Source: a phage. From it: a DNA stretch of 64,000 nucleotides. Below are positions 7,665-63,704 of the stretch, piece after piece (the stretch's first letter is position 1; the number at the start of each line of letters is the position of its first letter). The stretch is taken from the sequence record PZ049338.1; one strand, 5' to 3'. The notes below the pieces were generated by a model. It made no database searches, was not told the origin of the DNA, and saw nothing but the letters and a program-made list of their open reading frames with translations. The translations under genes and the position numbers were made by a program.

Positions 7665-7667
7665 TGA

Positions 7668-7892: not shown

Positions 7893-7894
7893 TA

Positions 7895-21634: not shown

Positions 21635-21676
21635 CTTAAAAGTTTGTAAGATAATTAGAAATGTTAAGTAGAATTA

Positions 21677-21698
21677 CTCTTTATATATGTGGATTAAC
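21677..21698 (-). promoter_or_regulatory. Copy A of conserved 22-bp promoter-like motif, pointing leftward into the 21610-21634 hairpin
   Basis: Reverse complement reads GTTAATCCACATATATAAAGAG. Confidence 0.3.
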
Positions 21699-43156: not shown

Positions 43157-43831
43157 TTACAGAGTGTCATAGTAGTCTGCGCGATTATGCAGACACCAGT
43201 CACCCGACTCAACACGGTTACTGTCGCCTTGGTCTTCATCAATGTGATAAATCCAAGCCTTTGCGAAGGAACCATCATCCAGTTGGATTTCAACCTGCGT
43301 ACGGTTATAGAAACCATTCTCAGGGTCACAGGCACTGTACCCTTCCAGCATGTCGTATGCACCAGTCAGACCTTCCAGAGGTGCTTCAAATACATCAACA
43401 ACAACCTGCTTGCCAGACTTGTTAGCCTTAAGGTTCACGGAAGGGAAGTAGGAGCCACCGTAGCGATATAAATCGAACTGGTCTACAGTCACACCCTTAC
43501 TTACAAATTCACCGCCGCCACGAGCGTTTACGTGGAAATTCTGCATGTTGCGACGCAGAGAGCCATAAGTTGCGATGAATACTTTACCGTCTGAAGGAAT
43601 TACTAAGTTCTTTGACATTACTTGTCCTGTTTTAGGTTGTAGATAATATTTAACTTCGACAAATCGCCATGTGTTCTGGAGGTTCTCTGCCATTTCTTTT
43701 GCTTCTGGGTAAGTTAAGCCACAGCCAAGCTGATAACCTTCCTCACCCTTACTCATGCGACCAATCAGTAAATAACGAACTTCATGGTCACCTGTTAGTG
43801 GTTCTTTAATTGAGAGCTTCATCTTATACAC
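43157..43831 (-). CDS. GGCT/AIG2-like (gamma-glutamyl cyclotransferase fold) protein
   Basis: YGSLRR motif characteristic of AIG2/GGCT family. Confidence 0.45.
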   Translation of the reverse strand: MYKMKLSIKEPLTGDHEVRYLLIGRMSKGEEGYQLGCGLTYPEAKEMAENLQNTWRFVEVKYYLQPKTGQVMSKNLVIPSDGKVFIATYGSLRRNMQNFHVNARGGGEFVSKGVTVDQFDLYRYGGSYFPSVNLKANKSGKQVVVDVFEAPLEGLTGAYDMLEGYSACDPENGFYNRTQVEIQLDDGSFAKAWIYHIDEDQGDSNRVESGDWCLHNRADYYDTL

Positions 43832-43887
43832 TTCTCACCCCTTGTTATGTTCGACAAAGGCCACTCCGAAGAATGACCTTTAGCAAA

Positions 43888-44424
43888 TTACCAGAGCTTA
43901 TTAAGAGCCAGATTATTAGTAATCACTGGTGTGCTTTCGTAATCATCCAGAGATGTTGGGCCCATACTAATAGCACCATATCCAGTTACGTGAACACTTA
44001 CACGGGTCATCTGGTCGAAGAATTCCTTCATCTGAGACGGTTCTGTGATGTTCTTTCCAGCAACACCAAGAACCTGTACACGCTGACCAGAGGAGCGCAG
44101 ACCCTTCTTAGTGACCACTGCCGTAACTGTCTGACCAACAACAGTGGGCTTAGTTAATACCTCAAAGAACACACCGGATATGTCAGTTACACCCTGTTCC
44201 ATATGCATTGTTGCATAGTTAACTTTGTAGGTGTTTGGAACTTCATATACACGGGTAGATTTGAAAGTAGTACCAATGTAGTTATCTGCATTGAAGTCAC
44301 GGGAACGGCTACGACGTTCAGCCTCAATGAGAAGTGATTGGTAATAACCTTCCAGTATTTCACCAACACCTTTACGAGTTGTACTTAACCCGATTACTCG
44401 GGAATATCCAATAATTAAGAACAT
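43888..44424 (-). CDS. Hypothetical protein (178 aa)
   Basis: ATG 8 nt downstream of conserved 22-bp promoter-like motif. Confidence 0.45.
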   Translation of the reverse strand: MFLIIGYSRVIGLSTTRKGVGEILEGYYQSLLIEAERRSRSRDFNADNYIGTTFKSTRVYEVPNTYKVNYATMHMEQGVTDISGVFFEVLTKPTVVGQTVTAVVTKKGLRSSGQRVQVLGVAGKNITEPSQMKEFFDQMTRVSVHVTGYGAISMGPTSLDDYESTPVITNNLALNKLW

Positions 44425-44432
44425 TAAGAATC

Positions 44433-44454
44433 TCTCTTTATATATGTGGATTAA
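44433..44454 (-). promoter_or_regulatory. Copy B of conserved 22-bp promoter-like motif
   Basis: Reverse complement GTTAATCCACATATATAAAGAG followed by AGATTCTTAATG (start codon). Confidence 0.35.
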
Positions 44455-44457
44455 CTA

Positions 44458-44997
44458 TTACAATTTCTGAGTCACTGTTTCGTAGGTGGTTACTACCTTT
44501 TTCTTCTTCTCAGTGATACCGGAAAGAAGTGCCCAATAGAAACGACCGCCATGACGTTCAGCCATCTCAGCAGCAATCTGCTCTGCCTTCTCAGCAGTTT
44601 CCACCACTACGCGAGGTGGACGAGATGATTCAGGACACCACAAGATATACTTACCGAGGTTCTTATCTTTAGGAGAAGCCTTGGCTTCCGCTTTAGCTGT
44701 CTCTTGGGTAGCAGTAGAACTTTCACCCAAATCGTTGAGACGCCATGTATACAAGGCAGTACCTGATAGTAGGGTCAGTCGGCTACGAATGATGAAGCTG
44801 GTTGGTCGCTGATTCAACTGTATAGAATACAATTGACGACCATGCTTGTCAATTAAGCACACTTCCCAACGACCCGGATATAACAAGTAGATTCCAATAG
44901 TGTACATGAACCTATTACCAATACGAGCCTCTGCACGGTCATGGTCATGGAAGTTGAAGTTAACAGAAGAGGGGATGTGGATTAACTTCTTAGACAT
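44458..44997 (-). CDS. Hypothetical protein (179 aa)
   Basis: ORF. Confidence 0.4.
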   Translation of the reverse strand: MSKKLIHIPSSVNFNFHDHDRAEARIGNRFMYTIGIYLLYPGRWEVCLIDKHGRQLYSIQLNQRPTSFIIRSRLTLLSGTALYTWRLNDLGESSTATQETAKAEAKASPKDKNLGKYILWCPESSRPPRVVVETAEKAEQIAAEMAERHGGRFYWALLSGITEKKKKVVTTYETVTQKL

Positions 44998-45203
44998 TAT
45001 TTACCAACCTTAGTTACGCTTTCAACAAGAGCATAAGGGAATGCGGCTTGCAATTCCATGTGACCTGCCTTACCACCAATAGTCTTGTTCTCAATGAAGA
45101 TGTAGAACTTGTAGTGGTGAGGGTCAATCTGAACCATTGTTGCAGGAATGATTTTATCCGCAGAGTCAAGAAGTTTTACACGATATTTAATAATCTCAGC
45201 CAT
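44997..45203 (-). CDS. Hypothetical protein (68 aa)
   Basis: ORF. Confidence 0.3.
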   Translation of the reverse strand: MAEIIKYRVKLLDSADKIIPATMVQIDPHHYKFYIFIENKTIGGKAGHMELQAAFPYALVESVTKVGK

Positions 45204-45207
45204 TTCT

Positions 45208-45477
45208 TTAATCCCAGTTAGGTTGGAGGTCTTTCATTGCGAAGTCACGTACTTCACCACGTTCACGGCAAACAGCTTTTACGAACCACTGTTCACCTTC
45301 ATGGTACTCAGAGATACCATACCAAATATTGATTGGTACAATAGTGCGCTCTGCTGTTTCACCGCGCCAGTTAGTGTAGGTCACACGGTGTGGTACTTGT
45401 AGAACTAATAACTTTGGTCGTGCTGTTTCAGAAGGGACTTTCGTCGTCATAATCTTCACCGTAGACAATAGAATCAA
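45208..45477 (-). CDS. Hypothetical protein (89 aa)
   Basis: ORF. Confidence 0.3.
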   Translation of the reverse strand: MILLSTVKIMTTKVPSETARPKLLVLQVPHRVTYTNWRGETAERTIVPINIWYGISEYHEGEQWFVKAVCRERGEVRDFAMKDLQPNWD

Positions 45478-45703
45478 TGAACGCTTGATGTTTTGCCAAC
45501 TTCTTTTTCATGAGTTTGTTGTGGACTTGAAGAATATTAGAGACCTCTTTGGTGACAGTCACATGAGGTACAGCAACACCTTCAGCGAATTTTAGTCGCT
45601 TAAAGGGAGCGACAAGGTAAATGAACTTAGCAACTTCAGTGTTGTTTCGTAAATTTACCTCTTCCCCATTAGTTAACTTATAATACACCCAGAGATTCCA
45701 CAA
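45428..45703 (-). CDS. Small protein ending in SSB-like acidic tail DYDDESPF
   Basis: C-terminal motif resembling the SSB C-terminal tip. Confidence 0.35.
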   Translation of the reverse strand: MWNLWVYYKLTNGEEVNLRNNTEVAKFIYLVAPFKRLKFAEGVAVPHVTVTKEVSNILQVHNKLMKKKLAKHQAFIDSIVYGEDYDDESPF

Positions 45704-46865
45704 TAATTACATCGTTAGTTGTAACCATGATTTCCCAGCCAGCCAGTTCGAACATACCACCGGTGAATACACCTACGTTACGAACATCATCGTTACGCAT
45801 CTGAACGATGTAGATGCCGTTTTCAACCAAGCGAATTGGTTCCTGACGCGTCACAGTAGCTGTTACCTCTGCTTCGATAGCGAAGTTTTCATCTTCAGCA
45901 GCTTCTACTGCATTGTCTGTGGCAGTCTGGTTCTGAGTTACAATGTCAACCAGTTCCTGAGCGGCAGCGTTACCACGAACGATTGCTGCTTGCAATTCAC
46001 TGTTGGTGTTCACTTCATTTTGCAATTCAGCCAGAGCTTCATTAATATCTTCGACAGCATAAACTTCCTGACCATTGAAGATTGCCATTACGTTGGCTGC
46101 AAAACGTTCTGCGTTAGAACCGGTCATACCCGGAGCAGTGTTAACTTCCAGTACCCACGCTTCATCACGACGAGTAATGAGGTCAACTGCACCGTAGTCC
46201 AGACCCAGAGCAGCGATTGCTTTCAGGGCTTCACGCTTAGCTTCTTCATTAGGCTCAGCCTGCTGAGTTGCATAAATCCAACCAGTGTGGTGATTTCGGA
46301 TAATATCACTGTATTCTGGCAGGTCAGCGTAACCGTTCACACGCTTCTTCTGCTGAATGTTAGTGATAACACCATTCATCACATGGATGCGGTATTCACG
46401 ACGCTGAGCATTAACACCCTTGGTGTAAAGCTGTGCATTAGCCAGAGTACCTTGAACACCATCACCGAAAAGCTCTTCGTTGTTGGTTGCAATCACAATG
46501 CCTTCACCAGAGTGTCCAGAAAGGCGTGTACGGCAATAAACCAGATGACCTGCATCAAGCCATGACTGAGCTTCTTCACGGTCTGTAGTGTACTCTACAG
46601 TCTTCACATCATTGCGACGGAATACTTCGAAAGAGATACGTTTGTTGGTCGCATTACCAACGTTGTACGGGTTGTTCAGGATGCGGGCATTGCCGATGAT
46701 TTCGGCAGATAGGGAGGATGAACCGTAGTTGACAATTAAGTCACCACTGCGACCACGGAAGCGAGAGCCATCAGTCAGGAGACGAAGTGCTCCCGGCATT
46801 AAAGGCATGAGTTCGTTCAGGGTGTCAGAAGGGCCATTTGAATATACACGTAAGCGAGGTGCCAT
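45678..46865 (-). CDS. ATP-grasp ligase (RimK/glutathione-synthetase-like)
   Basis: Flexible loop RTRLSGHSGEGIVIA, EYRIHVMNG, DYGAVDLITRRDEAWVLEVNTAPGM matching ATP-grasp motifs. Confidence 0.75.
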   Translation of the reverse strand: MAPRLRVYSNGPSDTLNELMPLMPGALRLLTDGSRFRGRSGDLIVNYGSSSLSAEIIGNARILNNPYNVGNATNKRISFEVFRRNDVKTVEYTTDREEAQSWLDAGHLVYCRTRLSGHSGEGIVIATNNEELFGDGVQGTLANAQLYTKGVNAQRREYRIHVMNGVITNIQQKKRVNGYADLPEYSDIIRNHHTGWIYATQQAEPNEEAKREALKAIAALGLDYGAVDLITRRDEAWVLEVNTAPGMTGSNAERFAANVMAIFNGQEVYAVEDINEALAELQNEVNTNSELQAAIVRGNAAAQELVDIVTQNQTATDNAVEAAEDENFAIEAEVTATVTRQEPIRLVENGIYIVQMRNDDVRNVGVFTGGMFELAGWEIMVTTNDVIIVESLGVL

Positions 46866-46907
46866 TGTTGTTACCTTTTCAGTGGGTTGTTGGAAATCAA
46901 TATTATA

Positions 46908-46927
46908 AGAGGCTCCGAAGAACCTCT
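46908..46927 (-). terminator. Intergenic UUCG-tetraloop hairpin (weak terminator or processing site)
   Basis: On - strand AGAGGTTC-TTCG-GAGCCTCT; downstream tract only moderately U-rich. Confidence 0.3.
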
Positions 46928-46938
46928 GAAATATGGAC

Positions 46939-47178
46939 TTAAGCGGCCATCAATGCGATGAGTTTGCGGTTTTCATTCCTGAGAGCACCAATCTCATCAT
47001 CAATAAGACTGTAGTGGTACGATAACATTTGGAGGGACATTTCACCTACATCTGAGGCAGTCATCTGCTCGACGTAAGTTGCCTTCTCCTCAATCAGCCG
47101 TCCAATGTCTTTGTTGTTTTGTGCTATTAAATCCATCGCCTCTTTACGAGCAGCTCTTGCGACTTCATTATCAGCCAT
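46939..47178 (-). CDS. Hypothetical protein (79 aa)
   Basis: ORF. Confidence 0.3.
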   Translation of the reverse strand: MADNEVARAARKEAMDLIAQNNKDIGRLIEEKATYVEQMTASDVGEMSLQMLSYHYSLIDDEIGALRNENRKLIALMAA

Positions 47179-47402
47179 TAGACTTCAATCCCCTTCAGAC
47201 GGCAGTAGTCAGCCAGCATCATGTGGATTGATACCGGATAAGGGATAGCCACTTTAACACCTTTTTGCTCTTCGTAAAGACCAATCTGGTAGGCACGAAC
47301 TGCACGGAGCATATCAGAACCTAAATCAGTCATTGGAACTTTACGAATCACAACCGGGTTCTCCAGACGAAGAACCTTAACTTCTTTCATTGAATCATCC
47401 AT
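47178..47402 (-). CDS. Hypothetical protein (74 aa)
   Basis: ORF. Confidence 0.3.
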   Translation of the reverse strand: MDDSMKEVKVLRLENPVVIRKVPMTDLGSDMLRAVRAYQIGLYEEQKGVKVAIPYPVSIHMMLADYCRLKGIEV

Positions 47403-47417
47403 ATTCTCATTTACCTA

Positions 47418-49409
47418 TCATTTCTTGTTTGAAACTTTACCCGGAACCTTTCCAGTTTCCAGAACTTTTGAACAGCGTTCACAGCAAGGTGTACTGCCGA
47501 TAAACTCTGTAACCGCTGCTTTGTTGAAAGGAATCTTGTAGTTGCAGAAAGAGCAAGTGTTCATCTCTTCCCACTGAACCAGAGTCACTTTCATACCGTT
47601 TTGCAGAGACTTGCGATAAGTCAGGATTGGTCGGACATTACTGCCGCTATTCTTCCGCGCTTCCACAATCTCATTCTGGAGAGCTTTCAGTTCACTCTTC
47701 AGATGCTTGTTACTGTGGCACTGTAAGCAGAGGCTCTCAACCTCTGATTCAGCATCAACAGGTAACTCTTCTTGACAGTTGATACATTCAAAACGAAGCG
47801 AGTCGTCAGAGGACGTCTTTACACCATCAACTAACCCCGCATCTACACAACCACCACAATAGGCGTAATCATGATAGATTGTTGAGTCTGCCACGAAATC
47901 GAACGGTATTGGAGAGCCACAGTTTCCGCAGCAATTGTAAGACCCGTTTCCCTCCCATTCCTTTTTTGTGACTACAGTTCCGTCACGAGTTGTGTCCATT
48001 GTGTAACCATCATCTTCCTCTTCTTCGAGTTCAGAGAAGTCACCAATTGAAACACCGGGAGTGGTAAGAGTTAGAGCCGGCGGGGTACGATTGTTCTTGA
48101 CAGTGTTGAACTCTGTCAGAATATCATTGATATCTTCATCTAACGAACCTTCATCATCCAAATCCAATGTTGAAGGAATTAGGGTCTCACCTTGTGGTGA
48201 AACATCAGATACGATGATAGTCAGGATGTAGTTTGATTCGTAACAAGAGATAATCTTGCCTTCGAACATACCACCATCGGTGTACATTTCCAGAGGAACG
48301 CCATGACCCTGAACCTCAATGTAAGCGCCTTCACCTATCCAACCGGTAAGTTGACCTTTCTGAGGATTCTTAGGATACGGTTCGTACTGATACGCTTCGA
48401 ACACCATACGTTCATGCATCTTGTATGGAACCTGATGCACTTCCAGAAGTTCGTTAAGCTGCTTGTACTTGTTGCTCACTGAATCAGGGACACCAATGTG
48501 AGAAGGCTCAACGTTGCTTCGATTAACGCTGCTGCGAGAAGGATTGTTATAAACACGCGACGAGCCGTAGGTGTCATAACGGTCTGAAAAGTAGTCATCA
48601 TACGACTGGTAGGAATTGCCCCAGTAGCGCGATTGGTATACCGTTTGAAACACAGGCAGCTCGTGCTTGATTTCCTCCTTAAATACCAGACCATCAGTTG
48701 CATCAAATACATACTGAGTTCCGACTTCGAGTTCAAACTCTTTGTCGAAAGTTGGGTTCCACTTCTTACGGGACATAATCCACTTGAGCATGTCCTTCTC
48801 AGAAGCACCATACCAGTCACCACCAGTGGTCTTCATCATGTAGAATGGACGCTCGTCGTTACGCAGGAAGTTCAGCGTATTCAGCTTAGCGTCATGCCAC
48901 ACCAGAACGAATGCACCATGCAATTTCTTGATGGTTTCTTCGATACCGATAGTTGCGATTGAATGGCAAACGTTCTCACTGTCCACTTCAAACTGCTCAT
49001 GGTCAGGGAGTAGGCTTTGGTTTACTAATGAGCCGTTGTGAACCAGAGTGATATGTCCACATTGGAATGGGTGGGCGTTCTTGTCAACCACAGCTCCAGC
49101 AGTTGCATAGCGGTTGTGACCAACAATGAATCGAGGGTACGACACTGATGTTGTTTTAACACCGAGGTTGTTAACATTCTCAGAACGATGCTGAGCAATA
49201 TCTTTCCACAGAGTTGAACGAAGGAAAATGTCACTTGGTACAGCTTTCTTAGCCGTCTTCAAGAAGGCATCCTGCTGATACGGCTTGTAATAAGCCATCA
49301 CCCCAGTTGAATGGTCGCCTCGGAACACATCGGCATACAACATCTGCTCGAAACGCTCGAGGTTAGTTGAAGATAAGGCGGTTCCACCTACAAATACAAT
49401 TCCACACAT
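47418..49409 (-). CDS. Class-II (Ntn) glutamine amidotransferase-like protein with C-terminal triple zinc-ribbon region
   Basis: N-terminal MCGIV nucleophile; C-terminal CxxC pairs (CGNC...CGGC, CINC...CLQC, CSFC...CERC). Confidence 0.55.
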   Translation of the reverse strand: MCGIVFVGGTALSSTNLERFEQMLYADVFRGDHSTGVMAYYKPYQQDAFLKTAKKAVPSDIFLRSTLWKDIAQHRSENVNNLGVKTTSVSYPRFIVGHNRYATAGAVVDKNAHPFQCGHITLVHNGSLVNQSLLPDHEQFEVDSENVCHSIATIGIEETIKKLHGAFVLVWHDAKLNTLNFLRNDERPFYMMKTTGGDWYGASEKDMLKWIMSRKKWNPTFDKEFELEVGTQYVFDATDGLVFKEEIKHELPVFQTVYQSRYWGNSYQSYDDYFSDRYDTYGSSRVYNNPSRSSVNRSNVEPSHIGVPDSVSNKYKQLNELLEVHQVPYKMHERMVFEAYQYEPYPKNPQKGQLTGWIGEGAYIEVQGHGVPLEMYTDGGMFEGKIISCYESNYILTIIVSDVSPQGETLIPSTLDLDDEGSLDEDINDILTEFNTVKNNRTPPALTLTTPGVSIGDFSELEEEEDDGYTMDTTRDGTVVTKKEWEGNGSYNCCGNCGSPIPFDFVADSTIYHDYAYCGGCVDAGLVDGVKTSSDDSLRFECINCQEELPVDAESEVESLCLQCHSNKHLKSELKALQNEIVEARKNSGSNVRPILTYRKSLQNGMKVTLVQWEEMNTCSFCNYKIPFNKAAVTEFIGSTPCCERCSKVLETGKVPGKVSNKK

Positions 49410-49465
49410 GGATAATAATCCTCTAAGTTCATTTAAATGGGGCCGAAGCCCCTGTTTGTTAATAC

Positions 49466-51133
49466 TTAAGCGATATGGTCGTTATCTGGCTCATAATCAT
49501 CGTCTTCTTCAATATCGTCATCTTCAGATGATTCATACATATCGTAATCACCACCACGACGAGGTACAGGGACTTCATTACGAGCTTCACGGTTCTCTTC
49601 ATTACGCATGTCTACGAACTGACGGTAGAAGTTTCCGAACAGACGAGAACGTTGAGCCTGATTGGTTTCGTAGATGAACCAATCAATGTCAAAAGTGATG
49701 CCAAGCATATCGCACTTCCAACGCAACTCAGCTAACCAACGGAATGTCAGCATTGGAGGGCGGGTGTTCTCCAACAACCAAGTGCCATTACTGCGGGTTT
49801 CCAGATTGATTCGCAGGTGTTCCCAATAGCGAGGTTCCAGATAGAAATTTGTACGATGACTTGAATCATCCTCGGCAGATTTCACAGTGTGAACGTAAGC
49901 ACTGAGTTTGCGTAGGGTTGACATTGAAATCACTTCATATGCCAGTTTGTAGCCAATGTCCAAATCTTCTTCGAAGTTCTGAACAACCTTCGGCAGACCC
50001 TTACGAATTGCGCTGTGAATCGGCAATGTTGATAGGTACTCAATGAAGTCACTATCAGTACCTTCGAAGTTCACCGCCAGTTCCTTCAGTGATAAGAAGC
50101 GGTTAGTCAGGCGAATAATGCTGCCCTTACGCCACTTGGCCTCACTAATACGGAATTCAACTGAACCAAAACTACTCATCGGTAACAAGTTCAGTGAAGT
50201 GTACTTATCCCATTCACGGGTTACACGATTAGTGAAATCGTGGTTGTCCAGATGCCAGTTGTTAGCCAGAGTAGCTAACTGCTCCTGTGCAAAACCAAGA
50301 GCAACACAGAAGTTGTTCTTGTAACGATGCCAACCAGAGCAGCGGAACAGTACACGCTCATAAACAATATACGCAAGAATCATGCGCTTCAGTTGAGCGA
50401 CACTCAAATCACGTACATCAATGTGAACGTGGGTGGAGCAACGCCAAGATGTATCTGGCGTATGACGGAACAGGAAGGAGTCGATTTCCAGGGATGCTGC
50501 ATAGAGGTCACGACCACCCCAAGGGGATGAACATACAAACTCCATACCTGAGTTACGAAGTGAACCATCTAGCTTTGCTTCCCAATACTGGAAAGTTGGC
50601 TCATCACTGAGGTGAATCTCTTCGAGTTCAATCTCAATACCTGCCAGATGTGTTCCAACAATTAAAGGATGACCCTGAATAGTTGGGTAGGTTGCACGTT
50701 GCCCGTAAATCTGTGCAATATTCATGTTATTCGATACCTCTACGTTTCCGGAGATGAAGCCGTTGCGGCTTGGATTATTAACGCTTCCGTGTCTCTGGTT
50801 ACCAATCTCTTCCCGTAGATTGTCTCGTGTGTATGCGTGTTGACCTCTTTGAAGTCCAGTGAAGAGGCTAGGTCTCTGGCTTTCGCGCTCCATTCTCCGC
50901 TGTCTTGCTTGTTCATCAGCACGGTTATTCAACCACGTCATGAAGGCACTATCTTCTGACTGAGCTACCCCCTGATTCACTATTGGCACAGGTGGCTCTT
51001 CGAAAGCTTGAGATACAACACTTTCTGTTACATTCGGAGGTTGATAATTAGCCCATCTGTCCATGTGTACAGTGGCTTCAACGTCGAAGAAACCCCCAGT
51101 TAATCCTGGGGAGTTGTTACTGTTATTTGGCAC
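49466..51133 (-). CDS. Amidoligase-like protein (GCS2/glutamine-synthetase-like fold candidate) with acidic C-terminus
   Basis: THVHID H-x-H motif; operon context with ATP-grasp and amidotransferase. Confidence 0.35.
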   Translation of the reverse strand: MPNNSNNSPGLTGGFFDVEATVHMDRWANYQPPNVTESVVSQAFEEPPVPIVNQGVAQSEDSAFMTWLNNRADEQARQRRMERESQRPSLFTGLQRGQHAYTRDNLREEIGNQRHGSVNNPSRNGFISGNVEVSNNMNIAQIYGQRATYPTIQGHPLIVGTHLAGIEIELEEIHLSDEPTFQYWEAKLDGSLRNSGMEFVCSSPWGGRDLYAASLEIDSFLFRHTPDTSWRCSTHVHIDVRDLSVAQLKRMILAYIVYERVLFRCSGWHRYKNNFCVALGFAQEQLATLANNWHLDNHDFTNRVTREWDKYTSLNLLPMSSFGSVEFRISEAKWRKGSIIRLTNRFLSLKELAVNFEGTDSDFIEYLSTLPIHSAIRKGLPKVVQNFEEDLDIGYKLAYEVISMSTLRKLSAYVHTVKSAEDDSSHRTNFYLEPRYWEHLRINLETRSNGTWLLENTRPPMLTFRWLAELRWKCDMLGITFDIDWFIYETNQAQRSRLFGNFYRQFVDMRNEENREARNEVPVPRRGGDYDMYESSEDDDIEEDDDYEPDNDHIA

Positions 51134-51717
51134 TGTGGTAATTCCTTGGCTAAAAAGCGAACCAAGTGACGTGCTTCAGCAGCCACTTCGATAGCATCGT
51201 CAGAGAGGAACTTACCGATGCTCACATCCTTGTAGCGTAAGTCTGAATTGACACGCAGGAATACCCCTCCAATAACTTCAGGATACTCATTTTTGTTGAA
51301 GAACGCTTTGATGTTCTCCCAACTAAAGCGGAAGTTGTTACAGATACGGCTGTGGGTTAACCCCTTCTTAGTTGAGCGATTTGCACGATAACTGACCCAT
51401 ACGAAGTTGTTTCCAATCTTCACGAATGCAGGCTCAGGTAATTCTAGAACCAGATTCGGGTCAGTATGAGAGATGGATACGTTACGGTAATTACCATCGT
51501 CACCCATCGTCGTTCCGTGGAATACCAGAGCATCTTCAGCTTCCTGAGAATACGCTGCACGGTCACGCTGTGCTCGCGTCATTTCACTGAAATCCAGAAC
51601 AGTATTGTCATGGGTCACTGCGTCAATCTGGAAGGGCTGGACTTTACCAGCCTCATCCTTCAGACCAACGTAAGTCCCAGAGTAATACATTGAGAAATCG
51701 TCGGTAAGCATTAGCAA
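51100..51717 (-). CDS. Hypothetical protein (205 aa), translationally coupled in amidoligase operon
   Basis: Overlaps both neighbours by short coupling overlaps. Confidence 0.4.
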   Translation of the reverse strand: MLMLTDDFSMYYSGTYVGLKDEAGKVQPFQIDAVTHDNTVLDFSEMTRAQRDRAAYSQEAEDALVFHGTTMGDDGNYRNVSISHTDPNLVLELPEPAFVKIGNNFVWVSYRANRSTKKGLTHSRICNNFRFSWENIKAFFNKNEYPEVIGGVFLRVNSDLRYKDVSIGKFLSDDAIEVAAEARHLVRFLAKELPQCQITVTTPQD

Positions 51718-52514
51718 ATCTCCATCACACGTACATATTCTTTAGCCAGAGCTTTGTCATTGTTGTTAATGACACGCTGTACTTCTTCCGGGTTGATGAT
51801 TGATGCGATGCCACGGAAATCACCACGCATCATAGCGAATGCTTTCTGAGCTTGTTCCCAAGCCCATTTGCGATTCTCTTTGTTCATAATCCAGAAGTTG
51901 GACATTACACGATATTCGATACCGTATGGCTTGAAGCGGCAAGCACCAGCTTTACCATACAGTTCTTTTCGACGGTCATCACCGTCCAGCAGGAGGGCGG
52001 GCAGTCCCAGGAAGTAGTCACACATCACGCCGAGAACTTTCTGACTTTCGGACGTCACAGTAGTAACTGTATCGTAGCCAACGTGGATGTGACCACCTGC
52101 TGTACGAAGACCGGGGTCAGCAGCTTGAGGTTTAGGATTACGCATACCAGTCAGTGCGTTGTAATCAGGCTCACAGCCGAATACGAATGCATCTTTGTGG
52201 AAGCGTTCCAGTTCAGCAGCGGTGTAGATATGAGAACTGACATTCATTGCCAGTTCATGACCTACATAACCAACTGCTTCTTCACAGTATTTGATACCAT
52301 CAACAATGTTCTTGTCGAAGGATTCAAAATCACTATGCGGGTTGGTGTCGAACTCAACCAGCACGTTATCTTCCTGAATACGAACGTCTTCCGTGACTGC
52401 TTTCTTGTTGTACTTGTCCGCTCCAAGCAGACCTGAAACAGAACTGATAGCCCCTGTGCTCGAATCACGAGTGAACAACTCAGGGTCGGTAGCCAACAAA
52501 ATAACATTAGACAT
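51711..52514 (-). CDS. Amidoligase-like protein (second copy, 267 aa)
   Basis: GGHIHVGY H-x-H motif. Confidence 0.4.
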   Translation of the reverse strand: MSNVILLATDPELFTRDSSTGAISSVSGLLGADKYNKKAVTEDVRIQEDNVLVEFDTNPHSDFESFDKNIVDGIKYCEEAVGYVGHELAMNVSSHIYTAAELERFHKDAFVFGCEPDYNALTGMRNPKPQAADPGLRTAGGHIHVGYDTVTTVTSESQKVLGVMCDYFLGLPALLLDGDDRRKELYGKAGACRFKPYGIEYRVMSNFWIMNKENRKWAWEQAQKAFAMMRGDFRGIASIINPEEVQRVINNNDKALAKEYVRVMEIC

Positions 52515-52534
52515 TTCGTTTTCCTTAAAGAGGG

Positions 52535-53671
52535 TTAATATTTAGGGTTGTAACCGTTTGCTTCTGCGAAAGCAGCCAAAGCAGCAATTGCAGCTTCAGC
52601 ATCTCTCTTGTTCATGTCACTATGAACCGGACTGTATGGGTGGTCTTGCGAACCAGATGTTGGGCCTGCAATGTAGAAACCAACAACACTGTTCCATTCT
52701 TGCACGCCTGGGATTACTTCATCACCAGCGATACTGAAAGCATCAACCATCTTACGGTAGCGAATTGCGTTAGAATGGTCAGTATCAATATCACCAAATG
52801 TATCACGCTCACGCGCTACATCACGGGAATTGGTTCTCCAGTTCCAGTAAATACCCTTGTAGCGGTCATCAAACACCACTTCAAGACTTTTAAAGTGCGA
52901 GTCACGATAGTAACCACGCTGATTCTTCCACGTATCCTGCACGTAGTCGAACTTGTCAACACGCTGATGGAGGAGGTTAATCAGGCCTTGAGAACCAATG
53001 GTGTCCGGAGAGAACCAGTTATACTCACCAGTACGAATTGGTTGATAATACTTATCGACCTTGCCCGAGAATGCACTCTTGTTAACAGTGATGTTAAAGA
53101 AGTGCGCGATGATGGCAGAAAAACGTCGCGTGTATCCACAATGCAACGCCTCTTTATAAGCGGTGACGAATCCACCATAGTTACAGAGGTTGCGGAACAA
53201 TGACATTGCCAACATAACTTCGTCAGCTTTGCGCTTGCCAATGTGGAAACGAATTACGCCAAGCTTTGGATGAACCTTCACCCAAGACTTATACATTGGC
53301 AACTCTTCCAGCAATAACTTCATTTCACTGAAATAGTTTGGGCCACAAGTTTTAAGCATGTACTTGACGCGTGATTGTTGATTTTCGATTTGGTAGAATT
53401 CCTCAGGATATTCACCATCGCCATGAGTATCCATTGGGGCAGACCACATGTGACTAATGCCATACTCAACTTCAAAATCGATGTGCTTCTGTTGGTGACC
53501 ATCACGCTCACGGATATTACTGGCTTCTACCGGAGTGAAATGTTGTGTCGGGCTGTCAGGGTTAATTAGGCGCTGCTCATGCCAACGATTAACACCCATT
53601 TTACCGAAACAAATACCTTGGGCACGGAAGGATTTTCCGTCCTTAAACATTACGCGATATTGAACTGACAT
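52535..53671 (-). CDS. Hypothetical protein (378 aa), paralog of the downstream-coordinate neighbour
   Basis: N-terminus CFGKMGVNRWHEQ aligns with CFGFMAYINQWNEH of 53672-54628. Confidence 0.45.
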   Translation of the reverse strand: MSVQYRVMFKDGKSFRAQGICFGKMGVNRWHEQRLINPDSPTQHFTPVEASNIRERDGHQQKHIDFEVEYGISHMWSAPMDTHGDGEYPEEFYQIENQQSRVKYMLKTCGPNYFSEMKLLLEELPMYKSWVKVHPKLGVIRFHIGKRKADEVMLAMSLFRNLCNYGGFVTAYKEALHCGYTRRFSAIIAHFFNITVNKSAFSGKVDKYYQPIRTGEYNWFSPDTIGSQGLINLLHQRVDKFDYVQDTWKNQRGYYRDSHFKSLEVVFDDRYKGIYWNWRTNSRDVARERDTFGDIDTDHSNAIRYRKMVDAFSIAGDEVIPGVQEWNSVVGFYIAGPTSGSQDHPYSPVHSDMNKRDAEAAIAALAAFAEANGYNPKY

Positions 53672-54628
53672 TTAGTTACCTTTTACATGTTCGTTAATGA
53701 GAGCAATGCAATTGAGGAGTTCTTCTTCATCAAGCTGATGGTAGCTTGAGGAATTATTACGAATCAGGCTCTCCAGTGTCTGACTGGTTGGTGAATCTGA
53801 TGGAGCACCTTGTACATCCATGAGAATATCCTTTAGGTCTGCTTCATGACCTATACGCTCGAAGATAGGTGCTGGTTCACCTTCCCCATCGTAGGTGGTC
53901 TCCATCGTACCATCACGGCCATAGCCGCTTGCAGTGGAACCCCACTCACCTTGCCATGCGTGTCCCAGACGACCTTCCATAATCATAATAATGTCATGGA
54001 TTTCAGTATCATCTTGGAACAGTTCAGAGTCATCACTGCATTGATACCAGTAACGAACCTCACCTTTCCAATTCGCATTGCCATTAAACATCATGGAGTA
54101 GATGAAGGCTTCTTTAGGTGAGTAACCTTTGTTACGAAGGAGTTCGTACAGTCGGTTACATGCTGTGTATTCAATCAAGTTACGGAGCATCATTGCACCG
54201 ACGATTGTTACCTGCATTTGCTGACCGCATAGAGGCCATGTAATACGAACGTTGGCATTACCCCAATTGCCACTATATTCAGATACCTTATCAAGGTTCT
54301 CTACAGTCACATTGCTGTAGAATTGTGGGAATGCTTCCATGATTGCAACTAAATCAGCTTCAATCATCCCCTTAACCGCGTCAGAATTACAACGAGGCAC
54401 TGGTAACCAAATTAAGAAGTGAATGTTATCTGATTCGAAGTCGGGGTTTGCGCAGTAAACACTTTCTGCATCCTCCCAATCAAAATCTTCATCATCTTCA
54501 TTTACAACATGCCCTAATCCATTAACGTAATGCTCGTTCCATTGATTGATGTAGGCCATGAAGCCAAAGCATGGGCGAGAGTGACGGAGTTCCTTCCCTT
54601 GTCCGTTAACAGTGATAGCTTGTACCAT
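53672..54628 (-). CDS. Hypothetical protein (318 aa), paralog of 52535-53671
   Basis: Shared N-terminal and mid-protein LRNL...Y motifs. Confidence 0.45.
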   Translation of the reverse strand: MVQAITVNGQGKELRHSRPCFGFMAYINQWNEHYVNGLGHVVNEDDEDFDWEDAESVYCANPDFESDNIHFLIWLPVPRCNSDAVKGMIEADLVAIMEAFPQFYSNVTVENLDKVSEYSGNWGNANVRITWPLCGQQMQVTIVGAMMLRNLIEYTACNRLYELLRNKGYSPKEAFIYSMMFNGNANWKGEVRYWYQCSDDSELFQDDTEIHDIIMIMEGRLGHAWQGEWGSTASGYGRDGTMETTYDGEGEPAPIFERIGHEADLKDILMDVQGAPSDSPTSQTLESLIRNNSSSYHQLDEEELLNCIALINEHVKGN

Positions 54629-54690: not shown

Positions 54691-55062
54691 TTATTCAGTT
54701 ACTTGCAGCTTGGAAGATTCCCAAAGCTGGTCTACCAGATGAACGCGCTTAACTGCGTCGTCAATGAATTGGTTGAGTTGAATACGCTGGAACTTCTCAG
54801 CCTGACGAGAAAGCAGGAGCTCTTGGTACTGAGCTTTCAGGAAGTTGCGAGTTACCACCAGAGTTTTCTGACGATGCCCAGCTTTGCCCAGACGGATTTC
54901 AGCATTAATAACACTGAGTTGGTCGCTGATTGATTTGCGTAGGACTTTCGCCGCAGACACTTCCAGATTAAAACGCTTAAGGTCTTTACGAGCGTTAGTC
55001 AGTGCTGAGCCTTCAGATTTCAGGATTGCTTCGATAGTTGCGATATTACCAATCTTATTCAT
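54691..55062 (-). CDS. Hypothetical coiled-coil protein (123 aa)
   Basis: ORF. Confidence 0.35.
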   Translation of the reverse strand: MNKIGNIATIEAILKSEGSALTNARKDLKRFNLEVSAAKVLRKSISDQLSVINAEIRLGKAGHRQKTLVVTRNFLKAQYQELLLSRQAEKFQRIQLNQFIDDAVKRVHLVDQLWESSKLQVTE

Positions 55063-55507
55063 TGCTTTTACCCTTAGGTTTGTGGAGTTTTAGGAAATAA
55101 TGGTTACGATATTTAAACGCTTTCTTACCTTTAGCCCAATAAGGTCTATCAGTACCACTGTAGAAGTGGGTGTAGCGATACTTGGGTTTATAACCGGGCT
55201 TCATCACCTTGCTGGCTAAGAACATTGCCTGTGCATAAGCTGCCTTCTCTTGACTCGTTTGTGGGTGAGTCTTGAAGACCTTCTTTTGCATAGTCAGCAA
55301 ACCGTTGAAGTCTTTGTGTTTAAGGCGTTTTGTCCAATCGAACTGACTCTTTTGCAGAACAACTTTACAAGCAGTATCTGGGTAACGTTCATCAGTGACA
55401 CGAGTCGCTATAACATCAGCAACTAATTCCATGCCCTTGTCACCCTCGCCTCCGGCCTCCGTATATATTGTTAATGTAAGTGCTAATAAGCACGCTGCAA
55501 AGCTCAT
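55055..55507 (-). CDS. SleB-like cell-wall hydrolase with N-terminal signal/SAR-like segment
   Basis: Hydrophobic N-terminus then EAGGEG...VADVIATRV...YPDT motif resembling SleB/Hydrolase_2 family. Confidence 0.5.
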   Translation of the reverse strand: MSFAACLLALTLTIYTEAGGEGDKGMELVADVIATRVTDERYPDTACKVVLQKSQFDWTKRLKHKDFNGLLTMQKKVFKTHPQTSQEKAAYAQAMFLASKVMKPGYKPKYRYTHFYSGTDRPYWAKGKKAFKYRNHYFLKLHKPKGKSNE

Positions 55508-63674: not shown

Positions 63675-63682
63675 AAGAATAC

Positions 63683-63704
63683 CTCTTATTATATGTGGAT
63701 TAAC
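63683..63704 (-). promoter_or_regulatory. Copy C of conserved 22-bp promoter-like motif
   Basis: Reverse complement GTTAATCCACATATAATAAGAG followed by GTATTCTTATG (start codon). Confidence 0.35.

What the first reader, a model, noticed from the sequence alone, without database searches (positions are those of the whole stretch)
43157..54628. Uncharacterised ATP-grasp / amidoligase / Ntn-amidotransferase / GGCT operon inside a phage replication block
Eleven co-directional, translationally coupled genes encode an ATP-grasp ligase (45678-46865), two H-x-H amidoligase-like proteins (49466-51133, 51711-52514), an Ntn glutamine amidotransferase with a triple zinc-ribbon tail (47418-49409), a GGCT/AIG2-like protein (43157-43831) and a tandem paralog pair of unknowns (52535-53671, 53672-54628). 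Together these have the enzymology to ligate amino acids or peptides onto a protein, nucleotide or small-molecule acceptor and to trim gamma-glutamyl linkages. Comparative-genomics work has predicted phage amidoligase systems of this type, but I know of no experimental substrate. The operon sits next to the primase-helicase and carries its own 22-bp promoter-like motif (44433-44454). Candidate targets are the virion (capsid or internal proteins), DNA bases, or a host factor.
Basis: partly seen in the sequence, partly recalled or inferred. Interest (0 to 1): 0.85.

Follow-up and report, generated by a model that had tools for sequence, protein, structure and literature searches.

The report
Conserved phage glutamyl amide-ligase cassette
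This is a real block of phage genes, already described from genome comparisons and found in hundreds of phages, that encodes several ATP-driven amide-bond-forming and glutamine/gamma-glutamyl-cleaving enzymes whose substrate nobody has yet identified.

Summary
All seven named genes sit at the stated coordinates on the minus strand. Profile searches confirm a RimK-like ATP-grasp, two glutamine-synthetase-fold ligases (Amidoligase_2 and phiEco32-type COOH-NH2 ligase), an Ntn glutamine amidotransferase with three zinc ribbons, and a GGACT-type cyclotransferase. The window is about 97% identical to Salmonella phage PKM.Hi.22.6.

The cluster is not new. It is the [quoted passage not shown] predicted by Iyer 2009 and Hardies 2013, with phiEco32, 7-11, LUZ24, PaP3 and RIO-1 listed as carriers. 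The cassette-specific ligase is in 315 phage records and at least 6,493 protein clusters. I found no experimental substrate.

What I add:
- The catalytic residues of all five enzymes are invariant across about 11 lineages.
- Three further proteins belong to the cassette: a roughly 205-aa beta-barrel protein, DUF7195, and the "paralog pair". The pair defines an unannotated family of 129 representatives with no detectable PDB relative (pLDDT 94).
- The 22-bp motif is real (4 copies, 0 expected) but lies inside the cluster.
- Kuravirus homologues are early genes and are expressed.
- Extreme GATC and palindrome avoidance argues against global DNA hypermodification.

Most likely the cassette builds and trims a glutamate-containing amide conjugate on a host amine. 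The acceptor is unknown.

The parts
53672..54628 (-). parA (318 aa): first gene of the cassette and a member of an unannotated family. Conserved residues are C20-F21-G22, R149-N150 and Y236.
52535..53671 (-). parB (378 aa): a distant tandem paralog of parA that abuts it with no gap.
   Evidence: BLASTP E 0.006; same family HMM (L002 orthologue 8e-83). Family members sit immediately upstream of COOH-NH2_lig in unrelated metagenomic contigs.
51711..52514 (-). phiEco32-type COOH-NH2 ligase type 2, a glutamine-synthetase / GCS2-fold carboxylate-amine ligase.
   Evidence: PF14395 2.1e-7, above the cut-off; PHROG 8.9e-104. 22 invariant residues, including E54, H142, H144, R193, E200 and R202, in 12 lineages. 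Present in 315 phage records and at least 6,493 protein clusters.
51100..51717 (-). u205 (about 205 aa, phrog_4877): a conserved non-enzymatic protein built of small beta-barrels, always located between the two GS-fold ligases.
49466..51133 (-). Amidoligase_2 (GS-fold ligase) with a low-complexity N-terminal extension and an acidic C-terminal tail.
   Evidence: Pfam 3.7e-4, below the cut-off; PHROG amidoligase 7.7e-82. Invariant residues are E167/E169/E171, R193, H235/H237, E259, R270 and E326/R328.
47418..49409 (-). Class-II (Ntn) glutamine amidotransferase domain, followed by a linker, a beta-rich domain, an acidic linker and three zinc ribbons.
   Evidence: GATase_6 1.5e-15. The N-terminal MCG, R30-G31, H98-x-R100, N111-A-H-P114, H124-N-G126 and D143-S144 are conserved in 12 homologues. 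At least one CxxC...CxxC ribbon is present in nearly all lineages.
47178..47402 (-). DUF7195 small protein (74 aa), a conserved cassette component located between the GATase and the ATP-grasp.
   Evidence: PF23825 1.1e-33. The equivalent unannotated 72-aa ORF in a PaP3-like phage scores 5.5e-18. The same position is occupied in metagenomic contigs.
46939..47178 (-). 79-aa protein found only in Moazamivirus-type relatives (lineage-specific filler).
   Evidence: HMM hits only in L001, L002 and L003; phrog_36016.
46902..46930 (-). Sigma70-like promoter candidate (TTCAGA-17-TATAAT) in the 73-nt gap before the ATP-grasp gene.
   Evidence: Consensus scan. A promoter is annotated at the equivalent place in phage 7-11. 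Function was not tested.
45678..46865 (-). RimK-like ATP-grasp ligase with a lineage-specific C-terminal extension of about 130 aa.
   Evidence: Pfam RimK 3.1e-6; NCBIfam rimK_fam 1.1e-9, far below the subfamily cut-off; PHROG 1.3e-105. G120/G122, E157-x-R159, K173, D228 and E240-x-N242 are invariant.
44458..45703 (-). Four small lineage-specific ORFs (91, 89, 68 and 179 aa). The 89-aa one (45208-45477) carries a WYL domain.
   Evidence: Homologues only in Moazamivirus-type loci; WYL 8.2e-6.
44433..44454 (-). 22-bp repeated motif (AGTTAATCCACATATAnnAAGAG core) immediately upstream of the start codon of 43888-44424.
   Evidence: 4 copies in the window against 0 expected; alignment. Found only in PKM-type phages, not in 7-11.
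43888..44424 (-). 178-aa lineage-specific protein of unknown function.
   Evidence: phrog_23983; homologues only in 7-11-type phages.
43157..43831 (-). GGACT/AIG2-type gamma-glutamyl cyclotransferase with an N-terminal extension of about 78 aa. It is the last cassette gene before the primase-helicase (41293-43089).
   Evidence: Pfam GGACT 8.2e-16. Y89-G90 (YGSL) and E163 (LEGY) are invariant in 9 homologues. The SU10 homologue was detected by mass spectrometry.

Best explanation
This is the phiEco32/7-11-type phage amide-ligase cassette. It is a set of early-expressed proteins that probably work together to make and trim a glutamate-containing, amide-linked conjugate on a host-derived acceptor.

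**Shown here.** Five enzymes are present with intact catalytic residues. They occur in a fixed gene order with three conserved non-enzymatic or unknown partners: the parA/parB family, u205 and DUF7195.

**Inferred from family chemistry.**
- The two glutamine-synthetase-fold ligases activate a carboxylate as an acyl-phosphate and join it to an amine or to ammonia. GCS2/GS-type enzymes typically form gamma-glutamyl amides.
- The RimK-like ATP-grasp adds a further amino acid, most likely glutamate.
- The Ntn amidotransferase domain retains the residues that bind a glutamine or gamma-glutamyl group with a free alpha-amino group. It either delivers ammonia to a ligase (carboxylate to carboxamide) or hydrolyses a gamma-glutamyl amide.
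- The GGACT enzyme removes a gamma-glutamyl group as 5-oxoproline.

**My commitment on the acceptor (weakest step, inference only).** I favour a small host amine or carboxylate, most plausibly a cell-envelope precursor such as the peptidoglycan stem peptide. This is the published proposal. The pathway would remodel the infected cell early, for example to exclude superinfecting phages. I consider phage DNA or virion proteins less likely targets.
For: **Domain identities:**

**Catalytic residues invariant across about 11 lineages:**
- COOH-NH2 ligase.
- GATase, including the Asp that binds the substrate alpha-amino group.
- Amidoligase_2, ATP-grasp and GGCT.

**Fixed synteny.** The order par - COOH-NH2_lig - ~205 aa - Amidoligase_2 - GATase - DUF7195 - ATP-grasp - GGCT recurs in these groups:
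- Zobellviridae, HMO-2011-type and crAss-like phages.
- Metagenomic contigs.

**Extra hydrolases in distant versions.** They add a class-I GATase / C26 gamma-glutamyl-hydrolase-like protein, and phiM6 also has second GATase-II and GGCT copies. This reinforces glutamine/gamma-glutamyl chemistry.

**Timing and expression.** In the Kuravirus relative SU10 the homologous genes are early-class. ATP-grasp, GATase, GGCT and the 23-kDa u205 homologue were detected by mass spectrometry (PMC4281155).

**Published proposal of peptidoglycan modification / superinfection exclusion:** PMC10580990, PMC6256558, PMC5498523.

**Host range.** The top ten genera, which hold most of the 315 records, and every locus inspected are Gram-negative.
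Against: - No component resembles an enzyme known to bind UDP-MurNAc-peptide or lipid II, and no Mur-ligase domain was found.
- GGACT-type enzymes need a free alpha-amino group on the glutamyl residue. Intact stem peptides do not offer one (family knowledge).
- Eight to ten proteins, including three with no enzymatic signature and a zinc-ribbon/beta-barrel tail on the GATase, look more like a macromolecule-directed complex than a simple metabolic pathway.
- The cassette is nearly always embedded among replication genes. A DNA- or replisome-linked role would explain that more directly.
- No experiment of any kind supports any acceptor.
Confidence: 0.45

Rival explanations
1. Protein tagging or polyglutamylation. 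The ligases attach glutamate, or a short glutamate-containing peptide, to a lysine or a C-terminus of a host or phage protein, for example a replisome, ribosomal or RNA polymerase component. This would be analogous to RimK on ribosomal protein S6 or PafA/Dop pupylation. GATase and GGACT would act as deamidase and de-conjugase.
For: - The ATP-grasp is closest to RimK-family glutamate ligases.
- PafA and Dop are GS-fold ligases, like the two amidoligases (family knowledge).
- GGACT acts on epsilon-(gamma-glutamyl)-lysine (family knowledge).
- The beta-barrel protein u205, DUF7195 and the zinc-ribbon tail look like protein-recognition parts.
- Timing is early.
Against: - The conserved small protein DUF7195 has no conserved C-terminal Glu or Gln that would mark a Pup-like tag.
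- The GATase keeps the residues for a free glutamine or gamma-glutamyl group rather than a peptide.
Confidence: 0.2
2. DNA or nucleotide hypermodification. The cassette decorates a base, or a nucleotide precursor, with an amino-acid or amide group during replication and so protects the phage genome from restriction.
For: - The cassette lies beside the primase-helicase and DNA polymerase in most lineages, and between the primase and uracil-DNA glycosylase in a crAss-like phage.
- The 20.8-kb Bas87 stretch I fetched keeps EcoRI and EcoRV sites at about the expected number.
- The GATase carries zinc ribbons and a beta-barrel that could bind nucleic acid.
Against: - The window shows extreme avoidance of GATC (8 observed, about 245 expected). 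Seven 6-bp palindromes are completely absent. Phage 7-11 shows the same pattern (0 GATC against 80 expected in 21 kb). This is the signature of DNA that is exposed to sequence-specific enzymes.
- The cassette has no hydroxymethylase, base-exchange enzyme, DNA kinase or aGPT-Pplase-like hit.
- The window has an ordinary ThyX and a dCTP deaminase.
- In two large metagenomic phage contigs the cassette is followed by NUDIX and AAA_28 genes, with no primase-helicase within the few kb downstream.
Confidence: 0.1
3. Auxiliary nitrogen or glutamine metabolism. The genes simply boost or redirect host glutamine, glutamate or glutathione turnover ("recycling of host material") to feed nucleotide synthesis.
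For: - Marine-phage and Planctomycetes-phage papers treat the amidoligase and GATase genes as metabolic AMGs (PMC10580990; PMC10945688 listed; PMC5498523).
- Every enzyme uses glutamine or glutamate-type substrates.
Against: - None of the enzymes is an orthologue of a host metabolic enzyme. All NCBIfam scores are far below the equivalog cut-offs.
- Strict co-inheritance of three ligases with three non-enzymatic partners in a fixed order is not what a simple flux booster looks like.
Confidence: 0.1
4. Synthesis of a free peptide-like small molecule, non-ribosomal or from a ribosomal precursor (RiPP-like). It would act as an inhibitor of a host process or defence system, with gamma-glutamyl used as a transient protecting group as in butirosin or ergothioneine biosynthesis.
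For: - The pairing of an ATP-grasp with a GGCT mirrors BtrJ/BtrG. The pairing of a GCS2-type ligase with a class-II GATase-like hydrolase mirrors EgtA/EgtC (family knowledge; a weak EgtC hit appears).
- There are weak ATP-grasp matches to RiPP maturases.
- Several conserved small ORFs lie in the cassette.
Against: - No candidate precursor with a conserved core or terminus was found.
- There is no transporter or self-immunity gene.
- The matches to RiPP maturases have E about 1e-4 and lie far below the cut-offs.
Confidence: 0.12

Closest known systems
phiEco32 / Salmonella phage 7-11 / LUZ24-PaP3 / RIO-1 "peptide-bond (peptidoglycan modification) cassette" (Iyer et al. 2009; Hardies et al. 2013; Duhaime et al. 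2017, PMC5498523)
   Same: It has the same five enzyme families in the same order, at the same place upstream of the T7-like primase-helicase. Pfam PF14395 is named after the phiEco32 protein.
   Different: - This phage and its Moazamivirus-type relatives add three zinc ribbons on the GATase and long extensions on Amidoligase_2, the ATP-grasp and the GGCT.
- They also insert six lineage-specific small ORFs (79, 91, 89, 68, 179 and 178 aa), one of them WYL-domain.
- The published seven-gene descriptions do not count the par family, u205 or DUF7195 as components.
Gamma-glutamyl protecting-group pathways: butirosin BtrJ (ATP-grasp) / BtrG (GGCT-like); ergothioneine EgtA (GCS2-type ligase) / EgtC (class-II GATase-like hydrolase); putrescine PuuA (GS-like) / PuuD (C26)
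   Same: They combine an ATP-dependent gamma-glutamyl ligase with a gamma-glutamyl-removing enzyme of exactly these folds (family knowledge; weak EgtC match; C26-like proteins in distant cassettes).
   Different: - No orthology: all scores are far below the curated cut-offs.
- The acceptor-specific enzymes of those pathways are absent.
- The phage cassette has three ligases and several non-enzymatic partners.
RimK (ribosomal protein S6 : L-glutamate ligase) and its cofactor-tailing relatives MptN and CofF
   Same: These are the best sequence matches of the ATP-grasp. The ATP-grasp Mg/ATP residues are conserved.
   Different: The score is 38 bits against a subfamily cut-off of 143, so this is not a RimK-family member in the curated sense. 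It also has an extra C-terminal domain.
Pupylation (PafA ligase / Dop deamidase, GS-fold)
   Different: - There is no Pup-like tag and no sequence or profile similarity.
- A GATase and a GGCT are present instead of a proteasome.
Peptidoglycan amidation systems MurT/GatD and AsnB1/LtsA
   Same: They carry out glutamine-dependent amidation of a stem-peptide carboxylate by pairing a ligase with a GATase. This is the logic behind the published hypothesis.
   Different: MurT is a Mur-ligase-fold protein and GatD is a class-I GATase. LtsA is a complete asparagine synthetase. None of these architectures is present here.

Membership tests
phiEco32-type phage amide-ligase cassette | Contains a PF14395 phiEco32-like COOH-NH2 ligase type 2 | tested here: met
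   30.9 bits against a cut-off of 25, E 2.1e-7; PHROG 8.9e-104; 74% identical to the 7-11 protein.
phiEco32-type phage amide-ligase cassette | Contains a second GS-fold ligase of the Amidoligase_2 family (PF12224) | tested here: met
   - The Pfam score of 20.9 bits is just below the 22-bit cut-off.
- PHROG amidoligase families match at 7.7e-82 and 4.6e-55.
- The HMM built from it recovers the annotated amidoligases of 11 other loci.
- The catalytic E-x-E-x-E, H-x-H and E-x-R residues are invariant.
phiEco32-type phage amide-ligase cassette | Contains a class-II GATase, a RimK-like ATP-grasp and an AIG2/GGCT protein in one co-directional block | tested here: met
   The same block is annotated in 7-11, PaP3-like, Kuravirus and phiM6 genomes.
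phiEco32-type phage amide-ligase cassette | Located in the early/middle region next to the T7-like primase-helicase | tested here: met
   The primase-helicase is at 41293-43089, 67 nt downstream of the GGCT gene. The early class is inferred from SU10.
phiEco32-type phage amide-ligase cassette | Modifies host peptidoglycan (the proposed function) | not testable with these tools
   This is only a published hypothesis. No sequence feature here specifically supports a peptidoglycan substrate.
Class-II (Ntn) glutamine amidotransferases | N-terminal catalytic Cys after Met removal, the Arg and Asp that bind glutamine, and the Asn-Gly oxyanion hole | tested here: met
   The MCGIV start, H98-N-R100, H124-N125-G126 and D143-S144 are invariant or nearly so in 12 homologues.
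Class-II (Ntn) glutamine amidotransferases | A fused acceptor or synthetase domain, as in GlmS, PurF or AsnB | tested here: not met
   Matches to GlmS, PurF and AsnB cover only about residues 1-270. The rest is a linker, a beta-rich domain and zinc ribbons. The RefSeq product name "L-glutamine-D-fructose-6-phosphate aminotransferase" is therefore not justified.
RimK family alpha-L-glutamate ligases | Score above the curated family threshold | tested here: not met
   TIGR00768 scores 38.1 bits against a cut-off of 143.4, and the S6-glutamate ligase equivalog scores 21 against 331. The protein is ATP-grasp superfamily and RimK-like only.
ATP-grasp superfamily | Glycine-rich loop, the E-x-R and Lys ATP contacts, and the D...E-x-N magnesium ligands | tested here: met
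   G120/G122, E157/R159, K173, D228 and E240/N242 are invariant in 12 homologues.
GGACT/AIG2 gamma-glutamyl cyclotransferases | YG(S/T)L substrate loop and catalytic Glu | tested here: met
   Pfam scores 59.1 bits against a cut-off of 22.8. Y89-G90 and E163 are invariant in 9 homologues.
Thymidine-type DNA hypermodification pathways (5-hmdU kinase / aGPT-Pplase) | Presence of a DNA base kinase, an aGPT-Pplase or a pyrimidine hydroxymethylase | tested here: not met
   None of the cassette proteins or the 116 par-family members hits such a Pfam family. The neighbouring thymidylate synthase is annotated as ThyX.
Pup ligase / Dop family | Sequence or profile similarity to PafA/Dop, and a Pup-like tag ending in Gln or Glu | tested here: not met

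The most novel reading that the evidence does not exclude
The cassette is a replication-coupled DNA or nucleotide modification system of a chemically new kind (amino-acid or amide decoration installed by GS-fold and ATP-grasp ligases). It would account for the so-far unexplained restriction resistance reported for Gordonclarkvirinae. The par family (no detectable PDB relative), u205 and the zinc-ribbon GATase tail would be the DNA-recognition parts.
Probability: 0.1. Interest if true: 0.9.

Novelty: new member of a known kind. Interest (0 to 1): 0.45.

Why it matters
**Scale of the open problem.** The cassette is one of the most widespread multi-enzyme modules in podoviruses without a known product. 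The cassette-specific ligase alone occurs in 315 sequenced phages and in at least 6,493 protein clusters from metagenomes. Carriers include therapeutic-candidate Pseudomonas (Bruynoghevirus) and E. coli (Kuravirus) phages, abundant marine phages and a crAss-like gut phage.

**What identifying the acceptor would settle.** It would decide between several quite different biological roles: cell-wall remodelling, protein tagging, DNA protection or metabolite synthesis. It would also allow the misleading database names ("ribosomal protein S6 glutaminyl transferase", "L-glutamine-D-fructose-6-phosphate aminotransferase", "D-alanine--D-alanine ligase") to be corrected.

**Tractability.** The phage in this window infects Salmonella, and its Kuravirus cousins infect E. 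coli K-12 derivatives, so the question can be addressed genetically.

**Structural interest.** The par family, and to a lesser extent u205, are high-confidence models without PDB relatives and are worth solving in their own right.

Tried and rejected
1. **PDB sequence searches.**
   - The two GS-fold ligases gave nothing meaningful.
   - The ATP-grasp and GATase gave only weak superfamily hits.
2. **Single-protein searches.**
   - The viral-contig scan with the COOH-NH2 ligase found only 2 close loci.
   - The word-indexed protein search with parB found only 5 proteins.
   - Both were replaced by tblastn against phage records and a full profile search.
3. **Idea that the par family is an aGPT-Pplase, kinase or other known enzyme.** No Pfam, NCBIfam or PDB hit supports it.
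4. **Idea that the par family is a degenerate GS-fold ligase.**
   - hhalign against the COOH-NH2 ligase profile gives probability 0.1%, and Foldseek finds nothing.
   - I keep it as a weak lead only.
5. **Homology of the par family to the syntenic unknown pairs of Bruynoghevirus, crAss-like and Zobellviridae phages.** hhalign gives probability 37% and E 3.6e-4. HMM hits are top-ranked but not significant. This stays unresolved.
6. **DUF7195 or other small ORFs as a Pup-like tag or RiPP precursor.**
   - Their C-termini are not conserved.
   - The recurrent C-terminal "LENK" of small ORFs in Klebsiella phage Asterion is most likely a ribosome-binding site plus an overlapping start codon. I inferred this from the codons, not the DNA.
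7. **The SleB-like cell-wall hydrolase two genes upstream as support for the peptidoglycan idea.** The adjacency is not conserved in Kuravirus, and the protein looks like the phage's SAR-type endolysin.
8. **Restriction-site avoidance as a cassette-linked trait.** GATC avoidance is specific to the 7-11/PKM lineage and absent in other carriers.
9. **The AFDB Foldseek library** was unavailable.
10. **Literature.**
    - The Iyer 2009 and Hardies 2013 papers are not held in the library, so their content is cited second-hand.
    - Nine literature searches found no experimental study of the cassette.

Full report

Yes. Transcription therefore runs from 54628 down to 43157 and on into the primase-helicase gene (41293-43089).

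The window is 97.6% identical over this region to Salmonella phage PKM.Hi.22.6 (OR053651, Grimontviridae). It is more distantly related to Salmonella phage 7-11 (Moazamivirus) and Cronobacter phage GAP52. The GenBank record annotates 15 CDS in the interval, not eleven, and almost all of them as "hypothetical protein".

Profile searches confirm each domain call:

| Gene | Pfam result | PHROG result |
|---|---|---|
| 43157-43831 | GGACT, 8e-16 | gamma-glutamyl cyclotransferase, 1.5e-40 |
| 45678-46865 | RimK ATP-grasp, 3e-6 | 1e-105 |
| 47418-49409 | GATase_6, 1.5e-15 | 2.7e-161 (phrog_4736, annotated GlmS-type aminotransferase) |
| 49466-51133 | Amidoligase_2, 3.7e-4 (just under the gathering score) | amidoligase, 8e-82 |
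| 51711-52514 | PF14395 "phiEco32-like COOH-NH2 ligase type 2", 2e-7 (above the gathering score) | 9e-104 |

The MCGIV start, the H-x-H motifs and the three CxxC...CxxC zinc ribbons are directly visible in the translations.

The two unknowns at the head of the cluster are genuine but very distant paralogs (BLASTP E 0.006). A single family HMM scores their near-identical counterparts in PKM.Hi.22.6 at 8e-83 and 6e-61.

**2. The 22-bp motif and coupling.**

The motif at 44433-44454 occurs four times in the window against none expected. Its invariant core is AGTTAATCCACATATAnnAAGAG. Among the loci I fetched it is found only in PKM-type phages and not in 7-11.

It lies inside the cluster, directly before the start codon of 43888-44424. 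At most it could serve that gene, the GGCT gene and the replication genes downstream. It cannot serve the ligase genes.

A sigma70-like site (TTCAGA-17-TATAAT) lies in the 73-nt gap before the ATP-grasp gene, at the same place as an annotated promoter in 7-11.

Several junctions overlap or abut, which is compatible with translational coupling. Gaps of 56-73 nt precede the GATase, ATP-grasp and GGCT genes. The cluster is therefore co-directional but is not shown to be a single coupled operon.

**3. What it is: a conserved cassette.**

tblastn with the COOH-NH2 ligase finds 315 phage records. They include Kuravirus and relatives on E. coli, Bruynoghevirus (LUZ24/PaP3) on Pseudomonas, and phages of Vibrio, Aeromonas, Proteus, Cronobacter, Klebsiella, Pseudoalteromonas and Sinorhizobium, plus a crAss-like gut phage. 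A profile of the family matches at least 6,493 protein clusters at 90% identity in public data. All those listed are single-domain proteins of about 267 aa.

I inspected the surrounding DNA in 11 distinct lineages and ran iterated HMM searches over all their ORFs.
- The COOH-NH2 ligase, Amidoligase_2, the class-II GATase and the RimK-like ATP-grasp are present in every lineage. The crAss-like amidoligase was found by Pfam.
- A protein of about 205 aa (phrog_4877) lies between the two GS-fold ligases in most lineages.
- The GGCT gene is present in seven distinct lineages.
- A T7-like primase-helicase follows within a few kb in most of them.
- More distant versions add a class-I GATase / peptidase-C26-like protein. 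PhiM6 also has a second GATase-II and a second GGCT.

**4. Already in the literature.**

Duhaime et al. [quoted passage not shown] They list phiEco32, Salmonella phage 7-11, PA11, tf, LUZ24, PaP3, RIO-1 and CW02 as carriers, citing Iyer et al. and Hardies et al. 2013 (PMC5498523). [quoted passage not shown] An OM43-phage paper repeats the superinfection-exclusion idea for phiEco32 (PMC10580990). The UFV-P2 paper tabulates the same gene order, including two unknowns upstream and a 72-aa ORF (PMC3890496).

Nine full-text searches found no experiment on any component. The two founding papers are not held in the library, so I cite them second-hand.

**5. Are the enzymes active?**

Alignments across about 11 lineages show invariant catalytic sets:

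| Enzyme | Conserved residues |
|---|---|
| COOH-NH2 ligase | 22 invariant positions, including E54, H142/H144, R193 and E200/R202 |
| Amidoligase_2 | E167/E169/E171, R193, H235/H237, E259, R270, E326/R328 |
| ATP-grasp | G120/G122, E157/R159, K173, D228, E240/N242 |
| GGCT | Y89-G90, E163 |
| GATase | N-terminal Cys, H-N-R, N-A-H-P, H-N-G, D-S |

In characterised class-II GATases the conserved Asp holds the alpha-amino group of glutamine (family knowledge). This domain therefore binds free glutamine or a gamma-glutamyl group with a free amino group.

The GATase has no fused synthetase domain. Matches to GlmS, PurF and AsnB stop at about residue 270. What follows is a low-complexity linker, a beta-rich domain, an acidic linker and zinc ribbons. 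Nearly all lineages keep at least one ribbon, and this lineage has three.

The RefSeq product names for the relatives are over-specific: "L-glutamine-D-fructose-6-phosphate aminotransferase", "ribosomal protein S6 glutaminyl transferase" and "D-alanine--D-alanine ligase". The NCBIfam scores are far below every curated cut-off.

**6. Additional cassette members that I could define.**

(a) **The par family.**
- A profile of the two paralogs and close relatives, searched against 1.84 billion representatives, gave 129 hits, 98 of them below 1e-10.
- The family has nearly invariant C-F-G, R-N and G-Y motifs.
- It has no Pfam, NCBIfam or PDB sequence match.
- The family HMM recognises the two unknowns upstream of the ligase in Kuravirus Bas87 (1e-15 and 4e-13), one in Vibrio phage Vp_R1, and four copies in an IMG/VR contig.
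- Two distant metagenomic members lie directly upstream of COOH-NH2_lig - ~205 aa - Amidoligase_2 - GATase.
- AlphaFold2 with 116 sequences gives pLDDT 94.4 and pTM 0.91.
- Foldseek finds nothing below E 0.5, and hhalign sees no relation to the COOH-NH2 ligase.
- I treat this as a family without a detectable structural relative. A degenerate GS-like fold is only a weak lead.
- Whether the syntenic unknown pairs in Bruynoghevirus, crAss-like and Zobellviridae phages belong to it is unresolved (hhalign probability 37%).

(c) **DUF7195.** The 74-aa protein at 47178-47402 is Pfam DUF7195 (1e-33). So is an unannotated 72-aa ORF at the same position in a PaP3-like phage, and the corresponding genes in metagenomic contigs.

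The remaining small ORFs between the ATP-grasp and GGCT genes occur only in Moazamivirus-type relatives. One of them carries a WYL domain.

**7. Timing and expression.**

In the Kuravirus relative SU10 the homologous genes lie in the early class (CDS 69-125, host sigma70 promoters). The ATP-grasp, the GATase, the YtfP/GGCT protein and the 23-kDa u205 homologue were detected by mass spectrometry in a PEG-concentrated lysate (PMC4281155). For the present phage, early expression is an inference from that relative.

**8. How it most likely works.**

The family chemistry is coherent.
- GS/GCS2-fold ligases activate a carboxylate as an acyl-phosphate and couple it to an amine or to ammonia.
- RimK-type ATP-grasp enzymes extend a carboxylate with glutamate.
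- Class-II GATase domains release ammonia from glutamine or, as EgtC does, hydrolyse a gamma-glutamyl amide.
- GGACT enzymes remove a gamma-glutamyl group as 5-oxoproline.
- The same fold pairings occur in gamma-glutamyl "handle" pathways: BtrJ/BtrG, EgtA/EgtC and PuuA/PuuD.

I therefore commit to a pathway that builds and trims a glutamate-containing amide conjugate early in infection. The acceptor is the unknown step. I rank the candidates as follows:
- A small host amine or carboxylate, most plausibly a cell-envelope precursor (the published proposal). This is my leading explanation, with overall confidence 0.45.
- Protein tagging, 0.2.
- A free peptide-like metabolite, 0.12.
- DNA or nucleotide modification, 0.1.
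- General nitrogen metabolism, 0.1.

**9. The DNA-modification reading deserves explicit mention.**

*For:*
- The cassette is embedded in the replication module in most lineages.
- The Bas87 stretch I hold keeps EcoRI and EcoRV sites at about the expected numbers.

*Against:*
- This window has only 8 GATC sites against about 245 expected. CAGCTG, CCATGG, GTGCAC, CACGTG, TACGTA, AGCGCT and GCATGC are all absent.
- Phage 7-11 has 0 GATC against 80 expected in 21 kb. That is the signature of DNA under sequence-specific attack.
- No cassette protein resembles a hydroxymethylase, DNA kinase, base-exchange enzyme or aGPT-Pplase.
- In two large metagenomic phage contigs the cassette is followed by NUDIX and AAA_28 genes, with no primase-helicase in the few kb downstream.

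**10. Verdict.**

The feature is a new member, in a phage nearly identical to deposited genomes, of a kind already described by comparative genomics. Its biochemical product remains unknown.

Its value lies in how widespread and tractable it is, and in the parts newly delimited here: the par family without a PDB relative, u205, DUF7195 and the conserved zinc-ribbon tail. It is not a surprise. Interest 0.45.

Noticed in passing
window 793-814 (+), 21676-21697 (-), 44433-44454 (-), 63682-63703 (-): A 22-bp motif (core AGTTAATCCACATATAnnAAGAG) occurs four times against none expected. In two copies a start codon follows within about 10 nt. The copy at 21676 points into the convergence zone between the plus- and minus-strand gene blocks. 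It is probably a phage-specific promoter or operator. It is present in PKM-type phages but not in phage 7-11.
   Followed up: partly
whole window; also L001 (Salmonella phage 7-11): GATC avoidance is extreme: 8 sites against about 245 expected in 64 kb, and 0 against 80 expected in 21 kb of 7-11. Seven 6-bp palindromes are completely absent, while GAATTC and GATATC occur at the expected numbers. Cassette-carrying phages of other genera do not share this.
   Followed up: partly
window 45208-45477 (-): An 89-aa ORF just downstream of the ATP-grasp gene carries a WYL domain (Pfam 8.2e-6). This domain is usually a ligand-sensing module of regulators. The ORF occurs only in Moazamivirus-type relatives.
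   Followed up: no
window 55055-55507 (-): A SleB-type cell-wall hydrolase (Pfam Hydrolase_2, 4e-16) with a hydrophobic N-terminus lies two genes upstream of the cassette in the early-side region. It is probably a signal-anchor-release endolysin and is annotated as "endolysin" in 7-11. The adjacency to the cassette is not conserved in Kuravirus.
   Followed up: partly
L004 (IMG/VR UViG_2974646952) 5604-10008: This uncultured relative carries four copies of the par family upstream of the COOH-NH2 ligase instead of two.
   Followed up: no
L015 13785-17032 and L017 15285-18927 (metagenomic phage contigs of 66 and 189 kb): Here the cassette is followed by a NUDIX hydrolase and an AAA_28 (NadR-like) protein rather than by a primase-helicase. 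The 189-kb contig also encodes a porin, TerD and a nucleoside transporter nearby.
   Followed up: no
L007 (Klebsiella phage Asterion) 8804-11063: Four small ORFs interspersed in the cassette all end in the residues LENK. This most likely reflects a conserved ribosome-binding site plus an overlapping stop/start (…GGAGAACAAATGA) rather than a protein motif; this is inferred from the codons, not read from the DNA.
   Followed up: partly
L010 (phiM6) 7558-8001; UFV-P2 ORF24 (PMC3890496): HNH homing-endonuclease genes are inserted between cassette genes in two unrelated lineages.
   Followed up: no
window 1-64000: ARAGORN finds no tRNA or tmRNA genes, although Kuravirus relatives carry a tRNA-Arg in the early region.
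   Followed up: no
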